Positions 3,001 through 63,000 of a DNA stretch of 64,000 nucleotides are shown piece by piece. The stretch lies in contig OZ260663.1 in NCBI GenBank assembly GCA_965285935.1, positions 35,092,001 through 35,156,000 on the forward strand, written 5' to 3'. Positions within the stretch are counted from its first letter, which is position 1. Each line of letters opens with the position of its first letter. The stretch comes from Ophelia neglecta (Eukaryota). Made by a program: the position numbers.

Positions 3001-6000
3001 GATCCCAGTTAGATATAGATCTTCTATTATTCGTTTTAATGTTCAACAGGCGAAATCCTTCGGATTTATAGGAGTTCTTTACCCATGATAGACCAATTAA
3101 TTTCGTGTATATATGTCCCCCGTTGCTGTTATACCGATTTCCACAACTGTTAAACTAAGGTGTTTTAAACCACAATCACCTTAGTCCATTTACCAATTTT
3201 CTAATTAGTATCATTAACGTCGCTAAGTTCTTGTCGTCCTGACATAGATTGACATTGTGCATCACTGTCGAATTCATGATAAAACGGCGGCAGATCGTTT
3301 AAAACGTCTATTTCATGTCTCACACACCGAGGACTTTTGTATGCATGGTCTTTACACTTCAGGTTCCCATTGGGGCACTTGAGCAACAAATGTTGACCAA
3401 ACTCTGGTTCCCTGTTGGGTGATTTATTTGTTTTTACTACTCCTAATGCTTGGTCGGCGTTGTCGACAGGTGTTCTGCGCAGCTGCTGTAGCTCCCAGAC
3501 ATGAGCGTAGCCATACTCACTTCCGCACACTATCCGGGCTTTGTCGGAACCGGGATCTTCTCTACATGGCCCCAGCACTACAGCACCATGGGGCCGTCTA
3601 TGTAACCTATGAATAAGACAGAAAGCATCAAATCGCGGTCTAAATACAAACAATGCAAGTCGTATACTCATTATGAACAATCCAATGTTTATCTTTTGTA
3701 ATGAAGGTTTGAATAATTTACAATCTACATATTTGGTTAATCATCACCTTTTCTGGCAAGTGAGAGCCAGGCCAAGAAGTAAGATGCCAAGACCTATACC
3801 CAGCGCAATCCCTATAACTACGGCTACAATCAGGCCTGTAACACATAAGACATGTCAAAATGAACTCTAAATAAAAAGGGATATTAAGTGTTGTTTATTA
3901 TTTAATAAATTGTGTTGCAACCTGTTTGACATATCTACTCATCTTAACCAGCATGGTTAATTTTTACATAGCATATTTTCTTCTTTCATCTAGACAGTAA
4001 AGGATCACTCAGTGTGCCCTTGCTATCATAAAACCAGCAAAATGCATATGACTTGATATAATGATACACCTGCTGTATATTACCAAATGATAAACTTTTC
4101 CTAACAAACATTTGGACACTGACACTTGGCATGAGCAACGAAGTACACCATTGAGAAATACACACCTAATGGAAGGGTGTTATTAGTCGGAGTTCTTCCA
4201 TGGCTTTGGGCTGTTACTGAAAAAGAACGTGTTATGAAACGTCGCTGACAGTATCAATTATATTCATAATATACTTTACACATTAGTCAGCACGAAAAAA
4301 TGCCGAACAAATTATATCTACTTGTTTTAATGATTATTTAAATTGGTCTTGAGGTGTGTTTTTTTTATAAAGGCAGTGCTCAGGGAGAATTTGAAGAAGT
4401 TTGGCTAAGTTTCGCAAGAAAGGAACATCAGATTTGTAGAACAAATATGAATTTAAAGACGCGTTTGTCTTCCTTGTGGCTAGTATTCGGTAAATCTTAT
4501 AAATGAATATAAACAGTTAGGAACTGTAGGAGTTTTGTGACACCTGTCTCTCGATATTATGGAAGGAAATTCAAACACCATAAACCAATATTACCCCGGA
4601 TTAATACAAAACCAACAATTGTGCCTAAATTAATATGGTGATCACCGCGTGTAGCTATAGTCGCCTCAAAATGTATACGGGCGAAACGTTCATTTCGTCC
4701 ATACAATTGATTATGAACTCGAAATTCTATGAACCTCATGAAAAGTCTAGTGTGCACACCAATCATGGAACGGCAAATGGTAGTTAGCAGATGAACTGAA
4801 CATAAACAGCAACTACATGGAATTCAATAAAGATTGAATTATGGAGTAAAGTTAGCTTACAGGCAGTATCAGAATATAGAAGGGAGGAACTGTCGCAATG
4901 TTTTTAGTGGATGCTCAGCAGAGAAGAGTCGGTTCTGCTCGATTGGGATATCTAAGAGAGGCACGTCTTTCTGGCCCGTTATAGTAGATCTTAAGCGTTT
5001 CGTCTAAATTGGTTCTGTGAGCGATGCCCTCTGAGCAGTATCAGCTCATACACGATCAAACCAGTGTTAGTTGGAGGCGCGGAAGCTAGCGTACGGCCAA
5101 TGAATGGCTGTGCTTCTAATGATAATAAATTGGCAGATGGCAAACAACATAAATATTTATATCCCAACTTGAGGCTTTCGAAAACTCTGACTTGTTCTCT
5201 GCGAGCCCTGTACCATGCTGAGGGGCGCTAATGTTTAACTTCATGTGTAGTCAAGGCACGTTAAAGTTCACGTTAAGCGTGAGGGTTGGCCGCTATTTCG
5301 CCCACAAGGCGAAATACATTCTTCCTGAAATGAAGTAGATTTATTCTTTCTTGTACAATCCGCTTCAACGCAATTCCTTCTAGGAGGAAAAGCTGGACAA
5401 TGACGACACAGAGCATCTGGCCCTTTTACATATCAGCAGGTTGGTTTTCATTGGAATAATCTTTCATATTGGCGATGCCCATCAGGGGCATCACAATACA
5501 CATTTGACCTATCATGACCCAGGTATGACACCTGAAACTCAAAACAGCATAATGACGACGGGGTTTCTAAATTGGTGTCAATTCTCACAGAGTCACTCTT
5601 CCACCTGTTTGTTTCATTCAAGATCGAAGATGCGAACCCTCTGCCAGATTATGTACTCAAAACAACTCCAGTGGGCCCTAAACGCTGCGACTTGAAATGT
5701 CGTTGAAACTCCAAACAACATCACACCAGAAGTGTGTGAACACCAGCTGGCCGTCAGGCAGAGAATATGTTATAAGCTGTGCATGTTTGGCTTCAAGGGT
5801 TTCAAATATTGCATCTATTATCATATCTGACTTTCTGCGTTCCTTGAAAGTTCGAACCTGGTGTTATGGCAAACCACCCTTTGCATTTATGACTTGTGAA
5901 ATCAGGAGCTGTCTGTCCTAACATATACCTGTAGTATATTGTTTTTGATGCGATAGGAGAGTCGAAAACTTTCATTAAATATTTGGTTTTGACGCCCTTA

Positions 6001-60000: not shown

Positions 60001-63000
60001 CTGGTGTTTGATCGAAATAAGAAAATCGAAAGTGGTACCTTTCCAGTCAATATTTTCTGTTTAATCTACGACGAGGCTACACGGCGGTCTTATATTGGAT
60101 AATCTAATGTGCTATCCTAATGACAAACGGACAGTCTGTATAAATGGACATTTTATACAATTTTGTTCTGTAAACATACCAATGCTAAAGGTACATCAAC
60201 TATTACAGGCGTGATATTTGCTTGATATGACAGTCGGTCTAGTGTCTTTTAGAACTCATTCAATGGTGCTATTGATCCATGCTTTTTAAATTAATAATGA
60301 CATCAGAGATGCATTCTTCATTTCTATGGCAGGAGATTTCAATGTGAACATTATCATCGAGGGTACTTTAACTATCGGTTATCAATGATTGTCACGAGAG
60401 AATGTCTGAATAGTTTGCCAAAAAAAATTAATGTGCGGAATGGCAGTAAATTAAGGACAATTTGTAATAACAAACCTCATTTTGCCTAATGCATTCCCTG
60501 GTAAAACGCGTGTCAAGAAAATATGATGTTTTCGGCTTGATTGCTCTAACGTCAGAGTGACTACGTTTTATGATGAGCTGGGCTGGATGTTAATTCTGCT
60601 ACACGTTCTCCTCGTGCGTGCGTACATGTAGTACTTGTAAACTTAGTTATCGGACACATTACCCCAAATAAGCCGTCTAGAAACGACATCTAGGCAGCGT
60701 GGACATTAACATCGAGGCCCCCGTTTATATAAAATTCGTTAATTGTACAAGTTGAAGTTTTAAGTGTCAAATTATCGAGGTTTTGTAATATAATCGTATC
60801 GTGCATACACGGTTTACAACGCCGGACTTGCGTGATGAATATAGCCGGATAGTACGAGTGACTGTCAGTATTGGAGAGCGGTTCATATTTCCAAAGGCAC
60901 TTACCATTATATTTGAGAGCAAAATACACAGGCTCCTTCTCCATTTTGAAGCTCATGATATGCACTTCAATCTTATTAGTCTCAGAGATGTAAACGCTAC
61001 GCTCCCTGATCATACTGCCGCATATTGTAATATCCGAAGCCATGCCGCGTTCCTTTATTTTGGCGTATACGTGACACATGTTTCCGGTCTCGGCAAATCT
61101 CGAGGCGACGCCGAAGTCCAGTAGGGTTATGTTGATTCGCTGTCCGGGTGGGAGCGCGATGACCCAGGGACACCTGTGGGAGCCGTAACCCAGCTCCTCT
61201 GTGACCACGCTGGCCAGGTAGCCATTGGGTCCCGTCGCAGATAACCCTCCAGGGTAGCTACAGCTCCGCCCTCCACCGTACTGAACTAAAAACAAATCAA
61301 AATACGAAAAACATGACTAAACTGGGACAATTTATATTGATTAATATACTGGCGAATTTGGGTAGAAATTCAATAAATAAACAAAATTTGAAATGAGCAA
61401 GAGTTAGTGGAGAATCTTTCGAAATAGCAATGTCATGGCCAATAAATACATAATGTAACTAAACGTTCCATTGAATATTGCACTGTACAGCTCAGTGAGT
61501 GAAGACATAAGGACAGAACGCTGTTTATAAATACATGTATGTTTTGTAGAAGGGTGGTATCTAGCAGACCTATTGCCATGAGCACCACGTTGGCACTAGC
61601 GCCAATAAAACTTCTTATTTGAGTTGTAAGCCCTATTACAGTATAATAGTGTCCAAGTAAAACACAAAATATGTGCTTACCATTTTTACAGGCATATTCA
61701 GCCTCTAGGTAGGAGAACATATCCTTCGGACATGGCTGTAACTTGTGTAGCTCATCGTCAGGTATATTTATTAAACAGCCATGCCTCCCTGAACACTTCC
61801 TGTCCACGTGCGAAAGAACATCGGCGTAACAACCCACGTGATCGTCTGACGTCACACATTTTCCTCTGTTCATGCGACCATATTTGGCAGACTGCATTAT
61901 CATGATTTGATCCCTGTCACACGTGGCGTTGAATGACTTAGGGAAACAGTACTCTTGCACACCTGAAACACCGTAAATTTTATTCTAGGCAGCAGGTCAT
62001 AGTGAGCACAAAAATGTTCTACAAAAATATCAAGTTGGCCTACAACAGAGGCCATGCATTATCAAGTCTTTAACACCCGTTTTCGGCCGTGGCTGACACC
62101 TGCACGTGTAATTGTGTTCTGGGTAATTTAATTGACCGACAAGGTTTGTCAGGCCATCATCTGATGTGATTGATATCTGATCCTGAAGCAACCATTCAGT
62201 GGTTGTGCGGCTTATCTAGTTTTCTTTGAGTGTAGATAATACCTAAATATTCCAGGGTGATTTGTATATACATGTATGTGAAAGTGAAAGGTTATGACCT
62301 ATAACATACTTTTGTCCCTTAATTATCTTTTTTGCTTATATATTTATTCTTCACCAAAATATTATACAATTGTACTCTATAGGCCTATATTAATATTTCT
62401 GATAACTTATGTAAATGTAAGGTCGTCCAGTGCTTACGACATCTGCTAATTCCTGACGTTCGTGTATAACTATACCTACTATTTTTTTTTGTTTTATTTT
62501 ATTGTCCTCATCAAGACTCCTTATTATGAAAAATGCAACGTTGGGATATATGATTAAATAGTACAAAAGAAAACGTCCATGTGTTTTCAGGATGTAATTT
62601 ATATCATGAATAGGTTACACCTTTTTGATGGCAGCCTTAACAATGTGACACACCTGCCTCTCAGGAAAATAATGATGTCATTTGTCACCGACTTCCATAT
62701 TACGGTAAGAAATATCATTAAATCCAAAATATGCTTGAGCCTCCTCCAGGGAACTGAGCAGTAACATAAATATTTGTGGTGAAGGACCGCACTAATGCTA
62801 AAATGCATTCCTAAGTGACCTCCTATTTAGTCATAGAGATCCAAGCTGCACGACTACTGTGAACTCACGTTCAATATTTAAATGGCCTTACTGTCATCTG
62901 AAGGCCATTTATGTCAGTAAGGCAATTTCTATTTGTTATTTAGTCATTATTTGGGTGTCACTTAGGCCATTTTTACACTACTTGGTGTAACTTAACAAAT

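What the first reader, a model, noticed from the sequence alone, without database searches (positions are those of the whole stretch)
3201..61962. Cluster of three SUEL-CUB-sushi-TM receptors with conserved tyrosine-motif tails
Seen: three intact paralogues with the same exon series, phase-1 domain exons, an 88-nt TM exon and a conserved cytoplasmic YGY(A/T)HV motif. Established: SUEL/RBL domains occur in latrophilins, EVA-1 and rhamnose-binding lectins, and CUB and CCP modules occur together in complement proteases and recognition proteins. Inference: I recognise no named, characterised family with this single SUEL + CUB + short CCP + TM architecture. It looks like a lineage-expanded invertebrate surface-receptor family for immune recognition, adhesion or guidance.
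Basis: partly seen in the sequence, partly recalled or inferred. Interest (0 to 1): 0.75.

Follow-up and report, generated by a model that had tools for sequence, protein, structure and literature searches.

The report
Three lectin-CUB-sushi membrane receptor genes
The window holds three old, still-constrained gene copies of a little-studied invertebrate cell-surface receptor family (lectin-like head, CUB and sushi-like modules, one membrane span, tyrosine-motif tail) that also occurs in annelid worms, so it is real and moderately interesting rather than a new kind of system.

Summary
Three paralogues lie at about 3201-10414 (-), 26071-31167 (+) and 57840-61962 (-). They share one exon series with GT..AG at all 17 introns, phase 1-1 domain exons, an 88-nt TM exon and a YGY(A/T)HV tail motif.

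- **Additions:** signal-peptide exons for A and B, and a 51-57-nt stalk exon in all three.
- **Gap:** gene C's first exon is not in the window.
- **Domains:** SUEL is firm by Pfam. CUB is weak by Pfam but clear by fold. The "sushi" module is supported by fold only.
- **Age:** the copies are old (synonymous sites near saturation) and under purifying selection.
- **Relatives:** profile searches find many. Full-length ones share the architecture; the only named ones are three hypothetical proteins of the annelid Capitella teleta.
- **Prior work:** an oyster "Gal_Lectin and CUB" lectin, CgGal-CUB, linked to haemocyte phagocytosis, is in print. I saw only its title and one citing sentence, so membership is untested.
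- **Sugar site:** the SUEL domain lacks most canonical sugar-site motifs.

Best reading: type I receptors that bind a ligand outside and sort or signal through tyrosine motifs. Interest 0.4.

The parts
10339..10414 (-). Gene A exon 1: start codon and signal peptide (a second in-frame ATG lies at 10381), with donor CAG|GTGAGT in phase 1
   Evidence: Scan for ATG, a hydrophobic stretch and a phase-1 donor; boundaries. The predicted cleavage lies three residues before 'EYCW', as in Capitella P0043.
9275..9553 (-). Gene A exon 2: SUEL/rhamnose-binding-lectin-type domain, 279 nt, phase 1-1
   Evidence: Pfam PF02140, 36.0 bits against cut-off 31.4; splice sites
7955..8341 (-). Gene A exon 3: CUB domain, 387 nt, phase 1-1
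   Evidence: Pfam CUB 17.1 bits, below the 21.4 cut-off; 62% identical to B's CUB exon, whose model matches CUB structures; splice sites
6942..7094 (-). Gene A exon 4: short CCP/sushi-like module, 153 nt, phase 1-1
   Evidence: Four conserved Cys and a conserved Trp; fold evidence (model of B's exon with A and C as alignment rows); no Pfam hit
4166..4216 (-). Gene A exon 5: stalk micro-exon, 51 nt, phase 1-1, ending ..LPL+G
   Evidence: matches the (F/L/Y)P(F/I/L)G found just before the TM span of homologues
3748..3835 (-). Gene A exon 6: transmembrane exon, 88 nt, phase 1 in and phase 2 out
3201..3606 (-). Gene A exon 7: cytoplasmic tail (134 full codons) plus stop TAG at 3203..3201
   Evidence: 41% identical to the tail of Capitella P0043 over 111 columns
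3498..3515 (-). Gene A tail motif YGYAHV, followed by WEL
26071..26113 (+). Gene B exon 1: start codon and signal peptide, with donor CAG|GTAAGG in phase 1
27532..27810 (+). Gene B exon 2: SUEL domain, 279 nt, phase 1-1
   Evidence: Pfam PF02140, 34.2 bits
28068..28457 (+). Gene B exon 3: CUB domain, 390 nt, phase 1-1
   Evidence: Pfam CUB 28.9 bits against cut-off 21.4. AlphaFold model pLDDT 88.5. Foldseek gave 16 matches at E<=0.001, and the 15 shown are all CUB structures.
29427..29579 (+). Gene B exon 4: short CCP/sushi-like module, 153 nt, phase 1-1
   Evidence: Model pLDDT 88.1. The best Foldseek matches are CCP-containing proteins, but none reaches E<=0.001.
30246..30299 (+). Gene B exon 5: stalk micro-exon, 54 nt, phase 1-1
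30436..30523 (+). Gene B exon 6: transmembrane exon, 88 nt
30756..31167 (+). Gene B exon 7: cytoplasmic tail (136 full codons) plus stop TGA at 31165..31167
30844..30861 (+). Gene B tail motif YGYAHV, which holds the only two tyrosines of B's tail
61681..61962 (-). Gene C SUEL exon, 282 nt, phase 1-1. It is the first exon of C visible in the window.
   Evidence: Pfam PF02140, 40.8 bits. No signal-peptide exon was found in 61963..64000.
60905..61285 (-). Gene C CUB exon, 381 nt, phase 1-1
   Evidence: Pfam CUB 20.1 bits, below cut-off
59676..59834 (-). Gene C CCP-like exon, 159 nt, phase 1-1
58975..59031 (-). Gene C stalk micro-exon, 57 nt, phase 1-1, ending ..FPY+G
58618..58705 (-). Gene C transmembrane exon, 88 nt
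57840..58230 (-). Gene C cytoplasmic tail exon (129 full codons) plus stop TGA at 57842..57840
58098..58115 (-). Gene C tail motif YGYTHV

Best explanation
**What it is.** The window holds three paralogous, probably functional genes for type I single-pass membrane glycoproteins of one conserved spiralian family.

**Shown: the domain order.**
1. Signal peptide.
2. A latrophilin-like SUEL domain with 8 Cys.
3. A divergent CUB domain with 4 Cys.
4. A short CCP-like module with 4 Cys.
5. A stalk of about 17 residues.
6. A TM helix followed by basic residues.
7. A tail of about 130 residues.

**Inferred: the mechanism.**
- The SUEL-CUB-CCP ectodomain captures an extracellular ligand, either a glycan or a protein.
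- The tail's conserved tyrosine motifs act as YxxPhi-type sorting signals and/or phosphotyrosine docking sites. The motifs are YGYAHVWEL, then Y(E/K)(S/T)P(K/R), then Y(H/F)E(F/L)(D/E).
- Binding would therefore lead to internalisation or signalling.

**Role I commit to.** An endocytic or phagocytic recognition receptor on blood or coelomic cells or on epithelia, as reported for the oyster Gal_Lectin+CUB protein CgGal-CUB.
For: **Gene structure.** Exon maps, phases and open frames come.

**Domains.**
- SUEL: Pfam hits above cut-off in 3 of 3 copies. The SUEL profile hits latrophilin lectin domains in the PDB (8suf_E at 1.7e-5, then 6ske_B, 8djg_E and 2jx9_A) and the lectin CSL2.
- CUB: the model has pLDDT 88.5, with 16 Foldseek matches at E<=0.001; the 15 shown are all CUB structures.
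- CCP-like: the model has pLDDT 88.1, and its 13 best-ranked matches are all CCP-bearing proteins such as MASP-1/-3, C6, factor H, IL-15Ra and Crry.

**Extracellular location.** N-glycosylation sequons are conserved in all three ectodomain modules: NAT, NIT/NIS and NHT/NYT.

**Selection.** pN/pS is 0.32 for A-B, 0.48 for A-C and 0.50 for B-C, and lowest in the SUEL exon at 0.15.

**Family.**
- A profile of the three CUB exons found 2124 proteins at E<=0.001 and 821 at E<=1e-10 among 1.84 billion representatives.
- 8 of 8 hits of 400 to 623 aa carry an N-terminal SUEL domain by Pfam at E<=0.01, 6 of them above cut-off.
- My own exon HMMs find SUEL in 15 of 15, CUB in 15 of 15 and CCP in 12 of 15 relatives.
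- All exons of A, B and C hit the same proteins in the same order.
- Five relatives sit on contigs of 1.0-1.9 kb nearly filled by one ORF, so the modules are co-spliced there.
- In 100 of 112 short genomic hits, the residue after the CUB end is G. That is the read-through expected of a phase-1 GT donor, so the exon boundary is conserved.

**Tail.** The motif Y[AST][HRY][VI] occurs in 9 of 16 tails (shuffled mean 0.36, maximum 4). [AST]H[VI]WE occurs in 7 of 16 (shuffled mean 0.00). The patterns were written after seeing the data.

**Role.** This rests on the title of Yang et al. 2024 and one citing sentence, which says CgGal-CUB expression rose after Vibrio splendidus infection together with phagocytic activity.
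Against: - **No expression data.** There is none for this species. Co-splicing is inferred from relatives only.
- **Gene C.** Its first exon is not in the window.
- **Sugar site.** The canonical site looks degenerate. Of the motifs that a review gives for rhamnose-binding lectin domains (YGR and DPCxGTxKYL; primary-site Glu, Tyr, Lys and Gly; PMC3269628), only YGR is kept. In HMMER's own alignment, the Lys of KYL aligns with Ala, the Gly with Lys, and the D of DPC with Gln. Classical lectin activity is therefore doubtful.
- **Evolutionary pattern.** The SUEL domain is highly conserved (86% A-B, 60-63% to Capitella), the paralogues are old, and no diversification is seen. This fits an endogenous ligand better than pathogen recognition.
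- **Weak database support.** Pfam does not see the CCP module (0 of 3 exons at E<=10; Sushi in 0 of 14 relatives at E<=0.01). No CCP fold match reaches E<=0.001. The CUB profile finds nothing in PDB sequences.
- **CgGal-CUB.** Whether it is a member was not testable, because no sequence or text was available.
- **Tyrosine motifs.** The roles are inference. One relative (P0103) has LAHIWE with no tyrosine.
Confidence: 0.5

Rival explanations
1. The proteins are neural or developmental adhesion or guidance co-receptors. The SUEL domain would bind an endogenous protein ligand, as latrophilin lectin domains and EVA-1 do. CUB-CCP would add protein contacts, and the tail would recruit cytoskeletal or kinase adaptors.
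For: - The SUEL profile's best solved relatives are latrophilin lectin domains.
- The canonical sugar-site motifs are mostly lost (read against PMC3269628).
- The family shows strong conservation and old, orthologue-like paralogues.
- A review lists EVA-1 as an axon-guidance receptor with this lectin domain.
- Type I CUB and CCP proteins have conserved synaptic roles (PMC9083331, passages).
Against: - There is no expression or ligand data.
- EVA-1 has a different architecture, and no Pfam family is found in the tail.
- The one probable functional precedent, CgGal-CUB, points to haemocytes.
Confidence: 0.3
2. The proteins are auxiliary or clustering subunits of an ion channel or neurotransmitter receptor, working like NETO, SOL-1/2 or LEV-10 through the CUB domain.
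For: - Neto2 in complex with GluK2 is among the best CUB fold matches (9n4p_E at 3.7e-4).
- The Atlas lists NETO2 clusters among look-alikes at 0.80, which is a lead only.
- Type I CUB proteins of this kind are reviewed in PMC9083331.
Against: - Any CUB domain matches Neto structurally.
- There is no LDLa module.
- That review has 0 occurrences of 'lectin'.
- The conserved tail motifs differ from the PDZ-binding ends described there.
Confidence: 0.08
3. The proteins act mainly as soluble or shed lectins, with the ectodomain released by cleavage in the stalk. They would opsonise or agglutinate like classical rhamnose-binding lectins.
For: - The SUEL domain has 8 Cys and the YGR motif.
- There is a short stalk exon before the TM span.
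- Symmetric phase 1-1 exons would allow alternative forms.
Against: - The conserved TM exon and conserved tail motifs argue for a membrane-bound function.
- The DPC/KYL motif and 3 of the 4 primary sugar-site residues are not kept.
Confidence: 0.07
4. One or more loci are dead copies, or the exon series is a prediction artefact.
For: Gene C lacks a visible first exon. No transcript data exist for this species.
Against: - All exons are open and all 17 introns are GT..AG with matching phases.
- pN/pS is below 1 in every exon and every pair.
- The exons match transcript-like proteins of other species colinearly.
Confidence: 0.04

Closest known systems
Capitella teleta hypothetical proteins CAPTEDRAFT_225510 (P0043), CAPTEDRAFT_228921 (P0153) and CAPTEDRAFT_209714 (P0152). 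Their automatic names are 'CUB domain-containing protein' and 'SUEL-type lectin domain-containing protein'.
   Same: - They have the same order of SUEL, CUB, CCP-like module, TM span and tail.
- P0043 shares the tail motifs YGYAHVWEL and YESPR.
- P0043 is 60-63% identical to A and B in the SUEL exon and 41% identical to A in the tail.
   Different: - They come from another species and are uncharacterised.
- P0043 has an insert of about 50 residues between CUB and CCP.
- These are the only relatives for which any source gave a name.
[quoted passage not shown] 2024, Dev Comp Immunol 159:105222)
   Same: - By its title, it has a Gal_Lectin (= SUEL, PF02140) domain plus a CUB domain in one protein of a lophotrochozoan.
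- It is reported to mediate haemocyte phagocytosis and to be induced by Vibrio splendidus (title; citing sentence).
   Different: - The comparison is unknown. The paper is not held and no sequence was available.
- Homology, and the presence of a TM span, CCP module or tail motif, were therefore not tested.
Latrophilins (ADGRL1-3, C. elegans LAT-1): the N-terminal lectin (RBL/SUEL) domain
   Same: These are the closest solved relatives of the SUEL exon (E from 1.7e-5 to 7.6e-3). The domain sits at the N-terminus of a membrane receptor.
   Different: - Latrophilins are 7TM adhesion GPCRs with olfactomedin, hormone-receptor and GPS domains (architecture as listed in PMC3269628).
- Here there is one TM exon and a CUB plus a CCP-like module instead.
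EVA-1 / EVA1C (C21orf63)
   Same: It is a single-pass membrane receptor with SUEL-type lectin domains. A review describes EVA-1 as an axon guidance receptor (PMC3269628).
   Different: - EVA-1 has two SUEL domains and no CUB or CCP (recalled, not from a call).
- Here each gene has one SUEL exon, and no Pfam family matches the tail.
CUB-CCP module proteins: MASP/C1r/C1s, SEZ6, CSMD
   Same: - A CUB is directly followed by a CCP module.
- MASP and C1s structures are among the fold matches for both modules.
- A SEZ6 cluster scores 0.85 in the Atlas, which is a lead only.
   Different: - There is no protease domain, no repeats and no EGF module, and a SUEL head is added.
- The CCP here is shorter, with 46 residues from first to last Cys.
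- Pfam Sushi does not detect it.
Single-pass CUB receptors with signalling tails: neuropilins, NETO1/2, DCBLD1/2, CDCP1, kremen
   Same: They are type I proteins with a CUB ectodomain and a short motif-bearing tail. They appear as fold matches and as Atlas look-alikes at 0.78-0.81.
   Different: - Their partner domains differ (FA58C, LDLa, LCCL, kringle).
- There is no sequence similarity in the tail.
- That the DCBLD and CDCP1 tails are tyrosine-phosphorylated is recalled, not from a call.

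Membership tests
SUEL / rhamnose-binding-lectin domain (Pfam PF02140) | Match to the family profile above the curated cut-off | tested here: met
   36.0, 34.2 and 40.8 bits against 31.4 in 3 of 3 exons
SUEL / rhamnose-binding-lectin domain | Eight conserved cysteines in about 100 residues (feature as stated in PMC10817417 and PMC3269628) | tested here: met
   Eight invariant Cys in the three-way alignment: C5, C13, C34, C43, C55, C61, C76 and C90
SUEL / rhamnose-binding-lectin domain | YGR motif, -(AN)YGR(TD)- | tested here: met
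   ARYGRM in A and B, AKYGRM in C
SUEL / rhamnose-binding-lectin domain (sugar-binding competence) | DPC motif, -DPCxGTxKYL-, and the primary-site residues Glu, Tyr, Lys and Gly (PMC3269628) | tested here: not met
   - The motif reads QPCPKD(L/M)(M/F)(A/S)Y(M/L)E instead.
- In HMMER's alignments to latrophilin domains, the Lys of KYL pairs with Ala, the Gly with Lys, and the D of DPC with Gln.
- No conserved Glu follows the first Cys.
- Only the Tyr is kept.
CUB domain (Pfam PF00431) | Match to the family profile above the curated cut-off | tested here: inconclusive
   B scores 28.9 bits, above 21.4. A (17.1) and C (20.1) are below. The PDB sequence search with the profile gave 0 hits at E<=0.01.
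CUB domain | CUB beta-sandwich fold with four cysteines | tested here: met
   - The model of B's exon has pLDDT 88.5.
- It has 16 Foldseek matches at E<=0.001. The 15 shown are all CUB structures (TSG-6, spermadhesin, PCPE-1, Neto2, neuropilin-2, ADAMTS13, MASP-2, C1r), with TM about 0.4-0.57.
- Four Cys are invariant.
CCP / sushi module (Pfam PF00084) | Match to the family profile | tested here: not met
   0 of 3 exons had any Pfam family at E<=10. 0 of 14 relatives had Sushi at E<=0.01.
CCP / sushi module | Four cysteines, a conserved Trp before the last Cys, and a small beta fold like solved CCP modules | tested here: inconclusive
   - C3, C25, C36, C48 and W41 are invariant.
- The model has pLDDT 88.1 with four strands.
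- The 13 best-ranked Foldseek entries are all CCP-bearing proteins, with TMq up to 0.71, but 0 of 240 matches reach E<=0.001.
- The disulphide pairing was not checked.
Latrophilin / adhesion GPCR L | Seven-transmembrane region with GAIN/GPS, hormone-receptor and olfactomedin domains after the lectin domain | tested here: not met
   Each gene has one 88-nt TM exon and a stop codon about 130 codons later. The exon ORFs tested matched only SUEL and CUB in Pfam (the stalk exons, A's and B's TM exons and B's CCP exon were not part).
EVA-1 / EVA1C | Two tandem SUEL domains and the EVA1-type C-terminal region (features recalled, not from a call) | tested here: not met
   There is exactly one SUEL exon per gene. 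The tails have no Pfam family at E<=10.
The SUEL-CUB-CCP-TM family itself (Capitella CAPTEDRAFT_225510 and relatives) | Colinear SUEL, CUB, CCP-like, (F/L/Y)P(F/I/L)G stalk end, TM and tail with a Y[AST][HRY][VI] / AH(V/I)WE motif | tested here: met
   - All exons of A, B and C match P0043, P0100, P0014 and P0015 in the same order.
- The stalk ends agree.
- The motif occurs in 9 of 16 tails, including A, B and C.
CgGal-CUB (oyster) | Sequence homology beyond shared domain names; presence of the CCP module, TM span and tail motif | not testable with these tools
   The paper is not held. Only its title and one citing sentence were seen, and no sequence was available.

The most novel reading that the evidence does not exclude
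This may be an unnamed receptor family spread across spiralians.

- A latrophilin-like SUEL domain that has lost the canonical sugar site would work as a protein-binding head on a CUB-CCP stalk.
- The near-invariant tail element (Y)AH(V/I)WE would be a new sorting or signalling motif, not a generic YxxPhi site.
- The A/B-type and C-type genes would be ancient paralogues, kept together as neighbours since before the split from the Capitella lineage.
Probability: 0.25. Interest if true: 0.6.

Novelty: new member of a known kind. Interest (0 to 1): 0.4.

Why it matters
- **Annotation.** Exact gene models, including a stalk micro-exon and the signal-peptide exons, are now available for a family that databases list only as 'hypothetical' or 'SUEL-type lectin domain-containing' proteins.
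- **Conservation.** The family is conserved, with the same exon boundary in many genomes, the same domain order and shared tail motifs. It is not a recent local expansion.
- **Lectin question.** The lectin-like head has probably lost the classical sugar site. This questions a simple 'lectin' label for relatives such as the oyster CgGal-CUB.
- **Experiments.** The tail motifs give concrete targets: Tyr-to-Phe mutants and adaptor pull-downs.
- **If the phagocytic role holds.** These genes would be candidate uptake receptors of annelid or mollusc immune cells.
- **If the guidance role holds.** They would be a third membrane-receptor use of the SUEL domain, beside latrophilin and EVA-1.

Tried and rejected
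- Word-indexed protein search with B's CUB exon against longer proteins: 151 candidates, none at E<=0.001.
Taxa and names of most relatives therefore stay unknown.
- PDB sequence searches:
  - The CUB profile gave 0 hits at E<=0.01.
  - The CCP profile gave 4 hits, all at E>=0.42, none a CCP.
- Pfam on the CCP exons and tails gave nothing at E<=10.

**Gene C's first exon**
- Three scans of 61985..64000 with loosening thresholds gave no convincing ATG, hydrophobic stretch and phase-1 donor.
- The best candidate, 63340..63238, has a weak donor. I rejected it.

**Gene-model alternative**
- An upstream AG for B's TM exon would add 'LFVSFAG'. I rejected it because that stretch is the polypyrimidine tract of the stronger acceptor.

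**Trees**
- Single-domain trees (SUEL, CUB; 18 rows each, quick method) gave 0 starred branches of 15 in either tree.
- C grouped with P0014 at SH-aLRT 91 (SUEL) and 86 (CUB). A grouped with B at 92 (CUB). These are suggestive only.
- I built no concatenated tree, because that would join exons.

**Other sequence in the window**
- Pfam on 12 other long ORFs gave none at E<=0.01.
- Pfam on 5 of them at E<=5 gave only a chance-level SelR hit at 0.16.
- One PDB search gave nothing meaningful.
- Rfam at gathering thresholds gave 0 matches, and ARAGORN found 0 tRNAs.

**Literature**
- 'SUEL-type lectin' + 'CUB domain' + transmembrane: 0 papers.
- 'rhamnose-binding lectin' + CUB + sushi: 0 papers.
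- SUEL + CUB + sushi + transmembrane: 5 papers, 4 listed. None is on such a protein by title, and only the Aplysia paper was opened.
- 'CgGal-CUB': 1 citing paper.

**Not done**
- The genome-contig collection holds bacteria and archaea only and was not scanned.
- Supplements are closed. The supplementary tables of the Aplysia immunome paper might list mollusc members.

Full report
**Scope and rules.** The window has no N and nothing in it looks human. The closest named relatives are annelid proteins. Protein lengths below are sums of exon lengths.

- Stop-to-stop ORFs and blastp of exon ORFs against all 2979 six-frame ORFs show exactly three copies of each exon type.
- I read the boundaries base by base and tabulated them.
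- Gene A (-) has seven coding exons from 10414 to 3201. They total 1440 nt, which is 479 codons plus the stop.
- Gene B (+) has seven coding exons from 26071 to 31167. They total 1419 nt, which is 472 codons plus the stop.
- Gene C (-) has six visible exons from 61962 to 57840.
- All 17 introns are GT..AG.
- The SUEL (279, 279 and 282 nt), CUB (387, 390 and 381 nt), CCP-like (153, 153 and 159 nt) and stalk (51, 54 and 57 nt) exons are all phase 1-1.
- The TM exon is 88 nt in all three genes. The last exon enters in phase 2.
- The motif YGYAHV (A and B) or YGYTHV (C) sits 31, 30 and 39 codons into the last exon.

**2. What I add to the observation.**
- Signal-peptide first exons exist for A (10414..10339) and B (26071..26113). 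Each ends ..LA, followed by a G that is the first base of a split codon. The predicted cleavage falls three residues before 'EYCW', as in Capitella P0043.
- A stalk micro-exon lies between the CCP and TM exons of all three genes. It ends LPL/FPY+G. This matches the (F/L/Y)P(F/I/L)G that precedes the TM helix in relatives.

**3. What I could not confirm.** Gene C has no acceptable first exon in the 2 kb left upstream. Its visible exons sum to 1358 nt (mod 3 = 2), consistent with one missing phase-1 exon beyond the window.

**4. Arrangement.** A and B are head to head, with their start codons 15.7 kb apart. B and C are tail to tail, with 26.7 kb between their stop codons. Nucleotide similarity between the loci is confined to exons, apart from one 25-bp A-B match.

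**5. Domains.**

*SUEL*
- Pfam PF02140 is above cut-off in 3 of 3 copies.
- Eight Cys are invariant and the YGR motif is present.
- A profile of the three exons hits latrophilin lectin domains first in the PDB (8suf_E at 1.7e-5; then 6ske_B, 8djg_E and 2jx9_A). The salmon lectin CSL2 follows at 4.2e-3.
- A review gives the defining motifs as -(AN)YGR(TD)- and -DPCxGTxKYL-. It gives the primary sugar-site residues as Glu, Tyr, Lys and Gly (PMC3269628, passages; also PMC10817417, passages).
- Here the second motif reads QPCPKD(L/M)(M/F)(A/S)Y(M/L)E. In HMMER's own alignment, Lys pairs with Ala and Gly pairs with Lys. No Glu is conserved after the first Cys.
- The fold is therefore SUEL, but classical rhamnose or galactose binding is doubtful.

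*CUB*
- Pfam is weak: B 28.9 bits, A 17.1 and C 20.1, against a cut-off of 21.4. The PDB sequence search found nothing.
- An AlphaFold model of B's exon, built on a 64-row alignment, has pLDDT 88.5.
- It has 16 Foldseek matches at E<=0.001. The 15 shown are all CUB structures.
- Four Cys are invariant.

*CCP-like module*
- Pfam sees nothing.
- Four Cys and a Trp are invariant.
- The model has pLDDT 88.1.
- Its 13 best-ranked Foldseek entries are all CCP-bearing proteins, but none of the 240 matches reaches E<=0.001.
- 'Short CCP-like' is a fair label. It is not proven.

*Sequons.* NAT, NIT/NIS and NHT/NYT are conserved in the three modules, as expected for an ectodomain.

**6. Selection and age.**
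- Per-exon Nei-Gojobori counts give pN/pS of 0.32 (A-B), 0.48 (A-C) and 0.50 (B-C). The lowest value, 0.15, is in the A-B SUEL exon.
- dS for A-B is about 1.7. pS for the pairs with C is about 0.8, which is saturated.
- These are old duplicates under constraint.

**7. Relatives.**
- A profile of the three CUB exons against 1.84 billion representatives found 2124 proteins at E<=0.001, 821 at E<=1e-10 and 13 at E<=1e-30.
- Of the best 150, 134 are 230 aa or shorter. In 112 of those the match reaches the end of the profile. In 100 of those 112 the next residue is G (GK 33, GE 14, GT 11, GR 10, and so on).
- That is the read-through of a phase-1 GT donor. In cDNA-like full-length relatives the next residues are instead (A/V)(I/V/L)GC, the start of the CCP module.
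- The exon boundary is therefore conserved in many unannotated genomes.
- Eight hits of 400 to 623 aa all carry an N-terminal SUEL domain by Pfam at E<=0.01, six of them above cut-off.
- With HMMs from the window's exons, SUEL and CUB are found in 15 of 15 relatives and CCP in 12 of 15. The three without it are P0103, P0149 and the fragment P0072.
- Every exon of A, B and C hits the same proteins in the same order.
- P0100, P0151, P0154, P0155 and P0015 lie on contigs of 1.0-1.9 kb nearly filled by the ORF. In those species the modules are on one mRNA.
- Only three Capitella teleta hypothetical proteins carry names.
- The Atlas puts two relatives in a 106-member cluster, 'SUEL-type lectin domain-containing protein', commonest in Annelida (0.98). 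A rotifer cluster follows at 0.87.
- Where an exon matched both, A and B are closer to P0015 and P0043 than to C. C is closer to P0014 than to A or B in every exon compared.
- Single-domain trees agree but without strong support.
- I read this as an ancient A/B against C split, not a lineage-specific burst.

**8. Tail.**
- Besides YGY(A/T)HV, relatives share a wider element: YGYAHVWEL, SGYAHIWEL, EYSHIWETPL, LAHIWETPLP, EYARIVNMPLP and EYAYIDDLIPPP.
- Two further motifs are Y(E/K)(S/T)P(K/R) and Y(H/F)E(F/L)(D/E).

| Motif | Tails with it (of 16) | Shuffled mean |
|---|---|---|
| Y[AST][HRY][VI] | 9 | 0.36 (max 4) |
| [AST]H[VI]WE | 7 | 0.00 |
| Y[EK][ST]P[KR] | 4 | 0.02 |
| Y[HF]E[FL][DE] | 4 | 0.00 |

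- The patterns were written after seeing the data, so the shuffles only describe them.
- B's tail has just two tyrosines, and both are in the first motif.
- YAHV/YSHI/YARI fit the general YxxPhi form. That such motifs bind AP-2, or serve as phosphotyrosine sites, is established knowledge applied here by inference.

**9. Mechanism.**
- Shown: a type I glycoprotein architecture, constraint on the genes, and a conserved tail.
- Inferred: ligand capture by the ectodomain, then sorting or signalling through the tyrosine motifs.
- For the biological role I lean slightly towards an endocytic or phagocytic recognition receptor. The reason is the oyster precedent, whose title and one citing sentence I saw.
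- An adhesion or guidance co-receptor role is nearly as likely. The grounds are the latrophilin-like head, the degenerate sugar site, the high conservation and the old orthologue-like paralogues.

**10. Comparison with what is known.**
- The genes are not latrophilin and not EVA-1/EVA1C. Each has one SUEL, and the tail has no known family.
- They are not classical soluble RBLs, because they have a TM span and lack the DPC/KYL motif.
- They are not SEZ6, CSMD or MASP.
- A 2011 review of RBL-domain architectures has no occurrence of 'CUB'.
- A 2022 review of CUB/CCP synaptic proteins has no occurrence of 'lectin'.
- My library searches found no description of the full architecture.
- However, CgGal-CUB (2024) probably belongs here. 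I could not test this.

**11. Verdict.** This is a real, well-defined cluster of three members of a conserved but barely studied receptor family. It is a new member of a known kind, and I score interest at 0.4.

**12. What stayed unchecked.**
- Expression and junctions in this species.
- C's first exon.
- The CgGal-CUB sequence.
- Any Ca2+ site in the CUB domain.
- The closed collections and the closed supplements.

Noticed in passing
window 44441..46115: A 44-bp satellite array of about 37 copies, 83% matching. It coincides with a sharp GC-skew peak of 0.33 in the 44001-46000 bin. It lies between genes B and C.
   Followed up: partly
window 13729..13946: A 47-bp tandem repeat with 4.6 copies, 90% matching. 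It lies about 3.3 kb upstream of gene A's start codon.
   Followed up: no
window 50685..51035, 52309..52599, 53729..53980 (+ strand): Three exon-like ORFs on one strand between B and C look like parts of an unrelated gene. Pfam found nothing at E<=0.01, only a chance-level hit at E<=5, and there was no meaningful PDB match. From memory they resemble the plant and fungal 'pathogen-related protein' family, but that is untested.
   Followed up: partly
window 11089..11468 (- strand) and 29994..30156: Proline-rich low-complexity ORFs lie about 0.7-1 kb upstream of gene A's start. A TH/CA-type microsatellite with proline-rich read-through lies inside gene B's intron between the CCP and stalk exons. 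Both are probably simple repeats.
   Followed up: no
relatives P0103 and P0043: P0103 goes from CUB straight to the TM span with no CCP module. P0043 has an insert of about 50 residues between CUB and CCP. All ectodomain exons here are symmetric phase 1-1, so exon skipping or insertion would keep the frame, and alternative forms are possible.
   Followed up: no
best 150 hits: Four very long proteins (P0001 4698 aa with 22 matched stretches; P0019 3847 aa with 14; P0130 3731 aa with 11; P0139 3674 aa with 10) match this CUB profile many times. Multi-CUB giants therefore carry the same CUB subtype. They were not examined further.
   Followed up: no
PMC9334734: The Aplysia immunome study lists only 3 SUEL lectin genes (LOC101858932, LOC101863218, LOC101864702). 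Whether any has the CUB-CCP-TM architecture was not checked, and the supplements are closed.
   Followed up: no
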